A stretch of DNA of 64,000 nucleotides from IMG/VR virus record IMGVR_UViG_3300025684_000010; one strand, written 5' to 3'. The notes under the pieces were generated by a model, which worked only from the letters and a program-made list of their open reading frames with translations, did no database searches and had not been told where the DNA came from. Shown here piece after piece: positions 38,488-39,454 of the stretch. Each line of letters opens with the position of its first letter. The stretch's first letter is position 1. Both the position numbers and the translations under genes were made by a program. The stretch is from a virus.

Positions 38488-38516
38488 TTGACATCTTTAC
38501 CAAAACTTGATATAAT
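38488..38516 (+). promoter_or_regulatory. sigma70 promoter
   Basis: TTGACA-17-TATAAT. Confidence 0.8.
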
Positions 38517-38522
38517 ATACAA

Positions 38523-38813
38523 ATGAATTACAATAAAAAGAATGGCGGAAGATCAGTTGATCTAACCCCACAAAAAAGACATCCTAAAGATAAAAGACCA
38601 CCATCAGCAATGCCGTTTGATATTGGTCTAAGAAAGTTCAGAAAGAACGTCGAATCTGCAGGAATTATAAAAGAACTGAGAGCAAGAGAATTTTACGAAA
38701 AGCCAACAAGCAAACGTAAAAGGAAAAAAGCTGAAGCTATTAAAAGGCACCAAAAGAAAATTGCGATGGAGTTTCAAACAACCAACGCAAGAGGCCAAAG
38801 AAATTACAGATAA
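38523..38813 (+). CDS. rpsU: Ribosomal protein bS21
   Basis: [44 protein letters not shown]. Confidence 0.9.
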
Positions 38814-38826
38814 ACTTAAAAAACTA

Positions 38827-38855
38827 TTGACATTTGGAAAATAGTTTGTTATAAT
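38827..38855 (+). promoter_or_regulatory. sigma70 promoter for candidate ncRNA
   Basis: TTGACA-17-TATAAT; predicted +1 near 38861-38862. Confidence 0.85.
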
Positions 38856-38861
38856 TATATT

Positions 38862-39017
38862 TGAAACGGTGGGATAAACCACGACGGCGAGATGGAATCA
38901 CGGAGTTAATAGCTCTACCATTTAGGACCCATGACGGAGAACTGCCTTCGGGAGCAACACCTGAACTACCGACATACTGAGTAGGAACGGAACGCCAAAG
39001 AAGCAACCACTGTTTCA
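38862..39017 (+). ncRNA. Candidate structured ncRNA (~156 nt, GGA-rich)
   Basis: 11-bp closing stem TGAAACGGTGG/CCACTGTTTCA, internal helices, cUUCGg tetraloop, 8 GGA motifs, own promoter, 3' T-run, no credible ORF, GC-rich against AT-rich background. Confidence 0.75.
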
Positions 39018-39040
39018 CCCTTTTTGACGGAGTTTATATT

Positions 39041-39454
39041 ATGGCATTAGCAAGAGGTCTATCAACGATTTCCACTCGGAAACGTAAAGTTAAAATCACT
39101 AAAGCTAAAATGGCTCAATACGAGCTTAATCGGCGACTGCACAACAAAGCAATGAAACGTAGTGGTATGCATGATCTAAGGTACGACACTGTTGATGAAT
39201 ATATAAATTATTGTTTAGGTAAAGTAAAACCTAGCAAAGAGTTTAAACCATTTGTACCAACCGATACATTTCGTAGAGAAGTACCAGAATATCCTTCTTG
39301 TCATTCTACAGGTGGCGGTGGTCATGGAACTAAAAAGGAATCGCCCAAATACACGGGTACACTCGTAAAAGGTATTGCTACGATGCATAAATCAAATGCA
39401 GTTCCAATTATGAATCAAAAAGAAGCAACAGAAATAAGTGAGATGGCAAGATGA
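39041..39454 (+). CDS. Conserved hypothetical basic protein
   Basis: KESPKYTGTLVKGIATMHKSNAVPI. Confidence 0.7.
   Translation: MALARGLSTISTRKRKVKITKAKMAQYELNRRLHNKAMKRSGMHDLRYDTVDEYINYCLGKVKPSKEFKPFVPTDTFRREVPEYPSCHSTGGGGHGTKKESPKYTGTLVKGIATMHKSNAVPIMNQKEATEISEMAR

What the first reader, a model, noticed from the sequence alone, without database searches (positions are those of the whole stretch)
38827..39026. Stand-alone GGA-rich structured ncRNA next to phage bS21: candidate CsrA/Rsm sponge or anti-SD decoy
Seen: a perfect TTGACA-17-TATAAT promoter (38827-38855) whose predicted +1 coincides with the first base of an 11-bp stem (TGAAACGGTGG 38862-72 / CCACTGTTTCA 39007-17, one G-U), followed by CCC and T5. 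Inside are GGCG/CGCC, AGATGG/CCATTT, GGAGTT-AAT-AGCTCT, a cUUCGg tetraloop and CTAC/GTAG helices, with no credible ORF. It holds 8 GGA triplets (38872, 38894, 38902, 38925, 38936, 38951, 38984, 38989), against roughly 2-3 expected by chance, mostly as ACGGA/ATGGA/AGGA. Established: CsrB/RsmY/RsmZ sRNAs titrate CsrA through repeated A(N)GGA motifs. Inference: the phage either de-represses host CsrA targets or, given the adjacent bS21 gene, uses SD-like motifs to capture or redirect 30S subunits. I do not recognise it as a known family.
Basis: partly seen in the sequence, partly recalled or inferred. Interest (0 to 1): 0.85.

Follow-up and report, generated by a model that had tools for sequence, protein, structure and literature searches.

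The report
New folded RNA of SAR11 phages
The gap after the phage's ribosomal-protein S21 gene encodes a real, strongly promoted, intricately folded small RNA of a family found in no catalogue searched. It is shared by many uncultured marine T4-like phages that probably infect SAR11, it does not look like a CsrA sponge, and its job is still unknown.

Summary
A perfect TTGACA-17-TATAAT promoter (38827-38855) fires about 7 nt before an 11-bp closing stem (38862-72 / 39007-17), followed by CCC and T5. There is no credible ORF and no Rfam match.

I collected 53 distinct homologues from IMG/VR and metagenomes. They support a three-way junction:
- Pairing: 96% of cells are paired, against 26-47% in slid controls, and 22 of 31 pairs show compensatory changes.
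- Arm 1 carries a textbook kink-turn and a variable, often GNRA-capped tip.
- Arm 2 is a rod with invariant purine-rich internal loops.

'cUUCGg' is the 5' strand of a covarying long-range helix (CUUC/GAAG). GGCG/CGCC is not supported.

The CsrA reading is not supported. Only 3 of the 8 GGA sites are kept in more than 80% of homologues. None sits in a hairpin loop, and one is the kink-turn itself.

Context argues for an independent, trans-acting RNA gene. 42 of 52 copies have their own perfect promoter. The RNA also occurs away from S21, and S21, p137 and a 70-aa gene each occur without it.

Function is unknown. My best guess is an abundant early protein-binding RNA, possibly tied to bS21 and translation takeover.

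This scan noted the same family earlier on other DNA.

The parts
38827..38855 (+). Sigma-70-type early promoter of the RNA (TTGACA-17-TATAAT, TG-extended)
   Evidence: A 12/12 match. A perfect 12/12 promoter ending 5-8 nt (14 nt in one clade) before P1 is present in 42 of 52 distinct homologues.
38862..39025 (+). The small RNA, from the predicted +1 to the U-run
   Evidence: CM R1 match at 38863-39018, 138 bits, E 5e-38, and the only copy in the window. nhmmer and CM matches in about 140 loci give 53 distinct sequences.
38862..38872 (+). P1, 5' strand (pairs with 39007-39017)
   Evidence: 8 of 10 pairs show changes on both sides, and 97.5% of cells are paired.
39007..39017 (+). P1, 3' strand
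38873..38878 (+). J1/2, an A-rich junction strand (G-A-U-A-A-A) with an invariant U38875
   Evidence: Alignment A1.
38879..38881 (+). P2a 5' strand: C38879-G38937, C38880-G38936, A38881.C38935
   Evidence: Column pair 21/94 reads CG 43, GC 3, UA 2. A.C becomes G.U in L303, L334 and L345.
38882..38885 (+). Conserved internal loop, 5' side (YGAC), facing 38931-38934 (AYGA)
   Evidence: Direct repeat CCAYGACGG at 38879-87 and 38929-37. G and A are invariant.
38886..38892 (+). Kink-turn, non-bulged strand: G-G (NC stem), C (3n), G38889 (2n), A38890 (1n), then G-A opening the C stem
   Evidence: C38885 to A38890 are invariant in 48 of 48 sequences. The consensus pattern is kept in every lineage, including L003/L004 and the L064 type.
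38921..38930 (+). Kink-turn, bulged strand: U-U (C stem), loop U38923-A-G38925, G38926.A38890 and A38927.G38889 sheared pairs, C38928 (3b), C38929-C38930 (NC stem)
Evidence: G-A-C-C is invariant or nearly so.
38891..38922 (+). P3 hairpin (38891-95 / 38918-22) with an optional tip (38902-06 / 38912-16, loop UAAUA)
   Evidence: 4 of 5 P3 pairs covary. In 21 or more homologues the tip is replaced by a short stem capped by GUAA, GCAA or GAAA.
38938..38945 (+). J2/4 junction strand (..A-C-Y-G.), with A38941, C38942 and G38944 invariant
38946..38949 (+). P4 5' strand (CUUC), pairing with 39000-39003 (GAAG)
   Evidence: All 4 pairs have changes on both sides (GC/UA/CG/AU) and 96-98% of cells are paired.
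38950..38965 (+). Arm 2, 5' side: loop GGGA, P4b G38954-C38955, loop AAC-NNNN-GAA
   Evidence: P4b pairs with G38994-C38995 (CG 44, GC 5, UA 2). A-A-C and G-A-A are invariant.
38966..38984 (+). P5 hairpin (38966-71 / 38978-84). An extra 21-35-nt GNRA-capped hairpin is inserted in its loop in 19 homologues.
   Evidence: 4 of 4 core pairs covary. Insertions are seen.
38985..39006 (+). Arm 2, 3' side: loop GAA-NNNN-AAC, P4b, loop CAAA, P4 3' strand, J4/1 (C-R-A)
39018..39025 (+). CCC spacer and U5 run. P1 plus this run is the probable, leaky intrinsic terminator.
   Evidence: 44 of 52 homologues have T4 or longer soon after P1.
38523..38813 (+). Phage bS21 gene, with its own perfect promoter at 38488-38516 and the ATG 6 nt after the -10 box
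   Evidence: Pfam PF01165 at 1e-16. It lies 5-87 nt upstream of the RNA in most loci.
39041..39454 (+). p137, a conserved gene of unknown function directly downstream
   Evidence: PHROG 27048, no Pfam family. It lies 18-71 nt after the RNA in most loci.

Best explanation
The stretch is an independent gene for an abundant early small RNA of about 155-160 nt. It is the founding type of a new family of pelagimyophage RNAs.

Shown:
- The RNA folds into a three-way junction. P1 joins the two ends.
- Arm 1 holds an irregular helix, a standard kink-turn and a variable tip that is often GNRA-capped.
- Arm 2 is a rod (P4, P4b, P5) interrupted by invariant purine-rich internal loops.
- The two arms are separable modules. 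One clade closes each arm with its own helix.

Inferred:
- Host RNA polymerase makes the RNA from a consensus promoter whose start site sits at the foot of P1. Most transcripts end at P1 plus the U-run. Read-through feeds p137.
- The RNA works in trans as a specific protein-binding RNA, either a scaffold or a decoy. It does not work through GGA repeats or base pairing.
- Its usual place directly behind the phage bS21 gene suggests the partner belongs to the translation apparatus. That could be phage or host bS21, or the 30S platform, as bS21 binds OLE RNA beside a kink-turn in Bacillota.
For: Real structured RNA:
- Homologues are 78-90% identical in nucleotides even where the flanking protein is 49% identical.
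- On the MAFFT alignment A1, 94.3% of cells are paired against 31-43% in slid controls, 21 pairs have double changes, and 0 of 500 shuffles do as well.
- On the CM alignment A4 the figures are 96.4% and 22 of 31 pairs.
- The kink-turn consensus is invariant in all lineages.
- Variable stems carry GNRA caps.

Modularity: L094 folds as two separately closed domains, z = -3.77.

Own gene:
- 42 of 52 copies have a perfect 12/12 promoter ending 5-8 nt before P1, and 44 of 52 have a U-run.

Trans rather than cis:
- 10 lineages have no promoter before the RNA but have one between the RNA and p137.
- Five or more lineages place the RNA before a 70-aa membrane-protein gene and one before a DUF262-like gene, with no S21 or p137 nearby.
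- Two RNA-bearing records of 100-108 kb have no S21.
- p137 (L030-38), S21 (L028) and the 70-aa gene (L376-379) all occur without the RNA.

Translation link:
- S21 lies 5-87 nt upstream in most loci.
- S21 and the RNA are missing together in L030-38.
- bS21 binds the ncRNA OLE next to a kink-turn (PMC12054373).
- Ribosomes carrying pelagiphage bS21 were about 5% active in vitro, and the authors suggested that further factors are needed (PMC6375957).
Against: - No expression or binding data could be obtained.
- The S21 adjacency is one inherited syntenic block, so it counts as roughly one observation.
- The RNA exists without S21 in at least three clades, and S21 exists without the RNA.
- The SD/anti-SD-like P3 tip is optional.
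- There is no similarity or complementarity to 16S rRNA above chance.
- In 42 lineages p137 has no promoter of its own and depends on read-through of the RNA's terminator, so some cis effect exists.
- Alphaproteobacteria are not known to have L7Ae-type kink-turn binders (from my own knowledge), so the kink-turn may be purely architectural.
Confidence: 0.4

Rival explanations
1. Cis-acting leader or attenuator. The fold is a sensor, either a riboswitch aptamer or the binding site of S21 or p137. Its P1, followed directly by the U-run, serves as the terminator stem. Stabilising P1 would shut off p137 and the downstream early genes.
For: - The RNA always lies upstream of, and in the same direction as, an ORF 18-71 nt away.
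- In 42 of 52 lineages p137 has no other promoter.
- P1 closes a multi-stem junction with invariant junction and loop bases and variable peripheral stems, as in aptamers.
- One downstream gene weakly resembles the PnuC transporter family (Pfam E = 0.049), which is often riboswitch-controlled (my own knowledge).
Against: - 10 lineages keep the RNA although a promoter lies between it and p137.
- Downstream genes differ: p137, a 70-aa membrane protein, and a DUF262-like gene.
- Each of these genes also occurs without the RNA.
- There is no alternative antiterminator pairing and no U-run in several clades.
- None of the 37 pattern matches in 185,579 species genomes is the RNA. A riboswitch class confined to phages would be unprecedented.
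Confidence: 0.2
2. Decoy or mimic aimed at another host factor, for example an RNA-targeting defence system, an RNase, or an RNA chaperone. It would be made early and in bulk to neutralise that factor.
For: - Consensus early promoter, hence probably high abundance.
- The RNA lies in variable early-gene regions next to homing-endonuclease-type genes. An HNH gene occupies its slot in L378, and a TnsA-like gene lies nearby in L380.
- Patchy presence among related phages.
Against: - No resemblance to any host RNA family in Rfam, including tRNA, tmRNA, 6S, SRP, RNase P and Y RNA.
- No defence gene or target has been identified.
Confidence: 0.15
3. SD-like decoy that captures 30S subunits or the anti-SD tail.
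For: - GGAG-containing words at 38902 and 38936, and GGGAGC at 38950.
- The P3 tip GGAGU/GCUCU resembles an SD:anti-SD duplex and is 100% conserved where present.
- The OLE P6 precedent (PMC12054373).
Against: - The P3 tip is absent from about half of the family (25 of 48 have it).
- The GGAG at 38936 is kept in 7 of 48 sequences.
- The GGAG of the tip is base-paired.
- The longest complementarity to 16S is 12 nt, against a shuffle mean of 11.4.
Confidence: 0.05
4. CsrA/Rsm-type sponge that titrates CsrA through repeated A(N)GGA motifs.
For: - 8 GGA in the window copy against 3.05 +/- 1.47 expected.
- The family median is about 6 per 140-195 nt.
Against: - Only 3 of 8 sites are GGA in more than 80% of homologues, and one homologue has 2 GGA in all.
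- No GGA lies in a hairpin loop.
- The conserved ones are structural: the P1 end, the kink-turn G.A pairs and an internal loop.
- The architecture is a compact three-way junction, not a string of GGA hairpins.
- No CsrB, RsmX, RsmY or RsmZ match even at E <= 10.
- CsrA was found in only 60 of 301 sampled genomes of the class of a Hyphomicrobiaceae MAG (presumably Alphaproteobacteria, the presumed host's class), and not in the Caulobacter control. SAR11 itself was not resolved.
Confidence: 0.03
5. Self-processing RNA (a new ribozyme) that frees itself from the S21 transcript in lineages that lack an RNA promoter.
For: - In 10 lineages the RNA starts 5-61 nt after the S21 stop with no promoter or terminator between.
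- About 40 invariant bases in loops and junctions.
Against: - No match to any self-cleaving class in Rfam.
- Host RNases could do the processing.
- Most copies need no processing at all.
Confidence: 0.05

Closest known systems
Kink-turn-containing junction RNAs (SAM-I, lysine and c-di-GMP-II riboswitch aptamers, T-box stem I)
   Same: A closing P1, a multi-helix junction, a standard kink-turn in one arm that can fold its often GNRA-capped tip back on the core, invariant junction and loop bases, and peripheral stems of variable length.
   Different: No sequence or structure match to any of them (Rfam). It is found only in phages, has its own promoter and terminator, keeps no conserved downstream gene class, and shows no alternative expression platform.
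OLE RNA region P5-P6, the bS21 binding site (Wencker, Lyon and Breaker 2025, PMC12054373)
   Same: A structured ncRNA linked to bS21. In OLE, bS21 binds a helix beside a kink-turn-forming region. Here a kink-turn arm lies in an RNA encoded right after a bS21 gene, and some members carry an SD-like:anti-SD-like duplex (GGAGU/GCUCU) on that arm.
   Different: OLE is about 600 nt, from Bacillota, membrane-associated and has OapA-C partners. There is no homology. The SD-like duplex here is optional and imperfect, and bS21 binding was not tested.
Phage T4 stable RNAs species 1 and 2 (rnaC, rnaD)
   Same: Small stable RNAs of unknown function in a T4-type phage, in a region that also holds translation-related genes and homing endonucleases.
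   Different: No CM match to the T4 rnaC/rnaD region (best 6.5 bits, E 0.9). rnaC ends in a tRNA-like T arm, which this RNA lacks. The T4 RNAs are processed from the tRNA precursor, whereas this RNA has its own promoter.
CsrB/RsmY/RsmZ sponges
   Same: A small untranslated RNA with more GGA than chance, a strong promoter and a terminator.
   Different: No repeated GGA-loop hairpins. GGA is poorly conserved and mostly structural. No model match.
manA, wcaG and glutamine-riboswitch RNAs of marine cyanophages
   Same: Conserved structured RNAs carried by marine T4-like phages, upstream of assorted genes.
   Different: Those families also occur in the hosts and are in Rfam. This one matches none of them, and none of the 37 pattern matches in 185,579 species genomes is the RNA.

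Membership tests
CsrB/Rsm sponge RNAs | Many GGA motifs displayed in hairpin loops or single strands of a repeated-hairpin array | tested here: not met
   The fold is a three-way junction. Hairpin loops are UAAUA or GNRA (P3) and CGACAUACUGA (P5), and neither holds a GGA.
CsrB/Rsm sponge RNAs | GGA motifs conserved among homologues | tested here: not met
   Per-site conservation is 41, 25, 25, 39, 7, 42, 29 and 16 of 48. Totals are 2-9 per homologue.
CsrB/Rsm sponge RNAs | Match to the Rfam CsrB, CsrC, RsmX, RsmY or RsmZ models | tested here: not met
   No such hit at E <= 10 or in homologues.
CsrB/Rsm sponge RNAs | Host encodes CsrA | tested here: inconclusive
   No host genome is held. CsrA was found in 60 of 301 genomes of the class of a Hyphomicrobiaceae MAG and was absent from the Caulobacter control. 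SAR11 could not be singled out.
Kink-turn motif | A three-nucleotide bulge followed by tandem sheared G.A/A.G pairs, with a Watson-Crick C stem on one side and an NC stem on the other | tested here: met
   The sequence pattern fits: 5'-GGCGAG-A... / ...UU-[UAG]-GACCC. G38889, A38890, G38926 and A38927 are invariant or nearly so. The -1 pair is G.U or G-C, L3 varies, and 4b-4n and 5b-5n are C-G in 53 of 53 sequences. The geometry itself cannot be tested here.
Riboswitch (cis-regulatory aptamer) | Always in the 5' UTR of the regulated gene, with an expression platform that competes with P1 | tested here: not met
   10 lineages have a promoter between the RNA and the next gene. No alternative pairing was found, and downstream genes vary and also occur without the RNA.
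Riboswitch (cis-regulatory aptamer) | Specific ligand binding | not testable with these tools
   This needs in-line probing or ITC with candidate metabolites.
T4 rnaC/rnaD | Sequence and structure homology to the T4 stable RNAs | tested here: not met
   CM R1 over T4 68.0-76.0 kb with filters off gives a best score of 6.5 bits.
bS21-binding RNA site of the OLE P6 type | An SD:anti-SD mimic duplex with conserved G-C pairs, bound by bS21 | tested here: inconclusive
   A GGAGU/GCUCU duplex exists in 25 of 48 members only. Binding cannot be tested here.
Any Rfam 15 family (tRNA, tmRNA, 6S, SRP, RNase P, Y RNA, known ribozymes and riboswitches) | Covariance-model match | tested here: not met
   Zero matches at gathering score in the 64-kb window. 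Only chance-level hits at E <= 10 on the locus and on 7 homologous loci. ARAGORN finds nothing.

The most novel reading that the evidence does not exclude
The RNA is the missing partner of phage bS21. In this reading a phage-made mini-RNP (RNA plus phage bS21, or RNA plus host bS21 as a decoy) drives the exchange of the loosely bound bS21 on SAR11 ribosomes and so reprograms initiation towards phage messages. This would be the first phage-encoded RNA cofactor of a ribosomal protein.
Probability: 0.15. Interest if true: 0.9.

Novelty: categorically new. Interest (0 to 1): 0.68.

Why it matters
Pelagimyophages are thought to infect SAR11, the most abundant heterotrophic bacteria in the ocean (PMC7029224). 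[quoted passage not shown] This work shows a conserved S21-RNA-p137 cassette. Its middle member is a complex, strongly expressed RNA with riboswitch- or ribozyme-grade conservation: a kink-turn, a three-way junction and about 40 invariant bases.

New complex-folded RNA classes are rare, and such classes have often turned out to have unusual biochemistry. This one gives a concrete, testable candidate for the 'additional factor' suggested when ribosomes carrying pelagiphage bS21 proved nearly inactive in vitro.

Even if the bS21 link is wrong, the family is a well-defined new target for structure determination and for RNA-protein capture in phage-host systems.

Tried and rejected
- Rfam searches: gathering score on the whole window, and E <= 10 on the locus, six homologous loci and the L094 variant. 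They gave only chance hits, such as S774 on the AT-rich promoter.
- ARAGORN found no tRNA or tmRNA.
- blastn of the locus against 50,697 phage records found no match. No cultured phage has the RNA. tblastn with S21 and with p137 found only distant hits.
- Two viral-contig scans were wasted on a mistyped pattern, NNNNTGAA instead of NNNNGAA.
- The genome-contig scan returned 37 hits. All are spurious high-GC coding matches by nhmmer.
- 16S-mimic idea. Words recalled from memory in h23/h24 looked similar, but local alignment of six members to E. coli rrsH falls inside the shuffle range. Complementarity does too. Rejected.
- 5S rRNA, RNase P, 4.5S and ykkC resemblances noticed by eye are not backed by any covariance-model hit. 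Dropped.
- Pseudoknot. I found no covarying or convincing pseudoknot among the unpaired conserved strands. The CC/GG contact in the arm-2 loop holds only in one subtype.
- Riboswitch for a PnuC-like gene. The 70-aa gene occurs without the RNA in 2 of 3 sampled lineages.
- p137 as an RNA-binding partner. The AF2 model is poor (pLDDT 64.6, conserved C-terminal motif unfolded), the ESM Atlas gave no hit, and Pfam found none. No fold search was run.
- Host csrA. Only a class-level tally was possible.
- No whole genome is held for the window.

Full report
**What is there**

Positions 38827-38855 hold a perfect extended sigma-70 promoter, TTGACA-17-TATAAT. Seven nucleotides later, an 11-bp helix begins. 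It runs from 38862-72 to 39007-17 and encloses about 135 nt, followed by CCC and U5. The interval is 44-51% G+C in a 31-39% background.

The gene upstream (38523-38813) is ribosomal protein bS21 (Pfam 1e-16). The gene downstream (39041-39454, 'p137') has no Pfam family and falls in PHROG 27048, of unknown function.

Rfam 15 gives nothing at gathering score for the 64-kb window. At E <= 10 on the locus it gives only chance hits. ARAGORN finds nothing.

**Homologues**

- A search of IMG/VR with p137 returned 62 loci. The intergenic element is present upstream in most of them, at 78-90% nucleotide identity even where p137 is only 49% identical. That is the signature of a functional RNA.
- Pattern scans of viral contigs and metagenomes added more. 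In all I hold about 140 loci and 53 distinct sequences.
- The same pattern hit 37 places in 185,579 species genomes, and all are spurious.
- No phage record in GenBank/INPHARED matches.
- The window carries the curli cluster, heme genes and S21, the gene set described for pelagimyophages of SAR11 (PMC7029224; earlier notes).

**Structure**

RNAalifold and manual analysis of a MAFFT alignment (A1) give a three-way junction.

- P1: 8 of 10 pairs have compensatory changes.
- Arm 1 base: C38879-G38937 (CG 43, GC 3, UA 2) and C38880-G38936. Next comes A38881.C38935, which becomes G.U in three lineages.
- Arm 1 loop: a 4x4 loop made by the direct repeat CCAYGACGG.
- Arm 1 kink-turn: the NC stem is G38886-G38887 / C38929-C38930, and 3b.3n is C.C. 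The sheared pairs are G38926.A38890 and A38927.G38889. The loop is U38923-A-G38925, and P3 forms the C stem. The G.A positions and flanking pairs are invariant in every lineage, while L3 varies among G, A and U.
- P3: variable. 25 of 48 members carry the long tip seen in the window. The others have 3-5 bp capped by GUAA, GCAA or GAAA.
- Arm 2: P4 (CUUC 38946-49 / GAAG 39000-03) has all four pairs covarying. Then come the loop GGGA/CAAA, P4b (GC/GC, GU/AC or GG/CC), the loop AAC-N4-GAA / GAA-N4-AAC, and P5 (CUAC/GUAG, all covarying). P5's loop accepts an extra GNRA-capped hairpin in 19 members.

On A1, 94.3% of cells pair against 31-43% when partners are slid. 21 pairs change on both sides, and 0 of 500 shuffles reach this. 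On the CM-built alignment A4 (55 sequences) the figures are 96.4% and 22 of 31 pairs.

In one clade (L094 type) an insertion gives each arm its own closing helix. The MFE shows two domains, z = -3.77. The arms are therefore separable modules.

- Right: P1, P3, the P3 tip and P5.
- Wrong: the 'UUCG tetraloop', which is really P4, and GGCG/CGCC. CGCC mutates to CACC or CACCC without compensation.

The eight GGA are real and enriched in this copy (8 against 3.05 +/- 1.47, P = 0.0025). Across 48 homologues the eight sites are GGA in 41, 25, 25, 39, 7, 42, 29 and 16 sequences, and totals range from 2 to 9. The three well-kept sites lie at the P1/J1-2 border, in the kink-turn and in the GGGA internal loop. 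No hairpin loop carries GGA. This is not the architecture of CsrB or Rsm RNAs, and no such model matches.

**Gene or leader?**

- 42 of 52 distinct copies have a perfect 12/12 promoter ending 5-8 nt before P1 (14 nt in one clade). 44 of 52 have a U-run soon after P1.
- The other ten copies start 5-61 nt after the S21 stop without a promoter, and carry a promoter between the RNA and p137. The S21-RNA-p137 interval therefore always has exactly one promoter, before or after the RNA. The RNA is conserved either way.
- Five or more lineages place the RNA, with its promoter, before a 70-aa membrane-protein gene (weak PnuC-like match, E = 0.049). One places it before a DUF262-like gene. None of these has S21 or p137 nearby.
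- Two such records of 100-108 kb, 45-50% complete, contain no S21.
- Conversely, p137 occurs without the RNA (L030-38, where S21 is missing too). S21 occurs without it (L028). The 70-aa gene occurs without it (L376-379, where an HNH endonuclease gene sits in its place).

No single cis role fits all of these contexts. An independent, trans-acting RNA does. In the window type, read-through of the P1/U-run terminator is still the only evident way to transcribe p137, so a side effect in cis is likely.

**Function**

Nothing computed here shows function.

- The form argues for a specific macromolecular or ligand partner rather than antisense pairing: about 40 invariant bases concentrated in internal loops and junction strands, a kink-turn, and GNRA-capped peripheral stems.
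- The consensus promoter argues for abundance and early timing.
- The commonest neighbour is bS21, and bS21 and the RNA are absent together in one clade.
- Two papers make a link plausible. bS21 binds the ncRNA OLE beside a kink-turn-forming region (PMC12054373). Ribosomes carrying pelagiphage bS21 were about 5% active in vitro, prompting the suggestion that further viral or host factors are needed (PMC6375957).

I therefore commit, at about 0.4 for the general claim and about 0.15 for the bS21-specific version, to an abundant early protein-binding RNA of the translation-takeover set.

Against the bS21 version:
- The synteny is a single inherited block.
- The RNA and S21 can each occur alone.
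- The SD-like duplex is optional.
- Similarity and complementarity to a 16S rRNA are at chance.

The rivals are an attenuator or riboswitch, a decoy for another host factor, an SD decoy, a CsrA sponge and a ribozyme. Each is listed with its own test.

**Comparison with known RNAs**

- The RNA works most like the kink-turn-bearing junction RNAs (riboswitch aptamers, RNP scaffolds). It is a member of none of them: it has no Rfam match, and T4 rnaC/rnaD do not match the family model.
- I found no description of it in the literature library.
- This scan noted the same family earlier on other DNA (e1-5326973, e1-5829969).
I could not confirm its 'pseudoknot'.

**Limits**

- No expression data.
- No host genome.
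- No RNA-protein prediction tool.
- Host csrA status is unresolved.
- The p137 model was too poor to use.

Noticed in passing
window 38488-38525: The bS21 gene has its own perfect TG-extended TTGACA-17-TATAAT promoter, and its ATG lies 6 nt after the -10 box. The mRNA is therefore probably leaderless. No terminator separates it from the RNA, so S21 transcripts should carry the RNA as a 3' end.
   Followed up: partly
window 35170, 38488, 38827, 40182, 43046 (+ strand): Five perfect 12/12 sigma-70 consensus promoters lie within 12 kb, all on the + strand. Those at 38488 and 38827 share the upstream word AAAACTA. Overall promoter-like counts do not exceed shuffles (47 against 47.3), but the perfect ones sit in intergenic gaps.
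   Followed up: no
window 39041-39454 and L001-L062: p137 has a basic N-terminus (RKRKVKITKAK) and an invariant C-terminal motif, YTG..(I/V)..GIATMHKSNAVP. The C-terminal domain alone recurs in other large myoviruses (Delftia PhiW-14, Acidovorax ACP17, Synechococcus BUCT-ZZ01). AF2 leaves the motif unfolded.
   Followed up: partly
L026:1-200: A tRNA-Thr(UGU) gene lies directly before the p137 homologue. It is preceded by a 33-nt remnant identical to the P3/kink-turn 3' half of the L004-type RNA. This looks like a lineage in which the RNA was disrupted or replaced by a tRNA gene.
   Followed up: partly
L378:2383-2910 versus L072:457-585: Between the same two neighbours (an NAD-dependent epimerase and the 70-aa membrane-protein gene), one lineage has the RNA and another has an HNH homing-endonuclease gene.
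   Followed up: partly
L243:590-802; L072:204-413: A conserved 69-70-aa three-helix membrane protein (MKWLAT...) follows the RNA in several lineages. It has a weak match to the N-terminal third of the PnuC/NMN transporter family (E = 0.049), and 34 clusters of close relatives are all unnamed. It may be a half-size PnuC/SemiSWEET-like protein.
   Followed up: partly
L094:368-574 (- strand): A variant of the RNA in a T4-like contig next to the gp43-type DNA polymerase region. A 26-nt insertion converts the single closing helix into two, giving tandem, separately closed modules that both begin with GGGAAUA.
   Followed up: yes
window 38896-38917: The long P3 tip (AAUCACGGAGUUAAUAGCUCUA) is 100% identical in all 25 members that have it, although the rest of the RNA varies. 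Its 5' part (GGAAUCAC-GGAG-UUA) resembles the 16S 3' end GGAUCAC-CUCC-UUA (the 16S sequence is from memory) with the anti-SD replaced by its complement. The word ACGGAGUU recurs at the p137 ribosome-binding site (39028-35) in this window only.
   Followed up: partly
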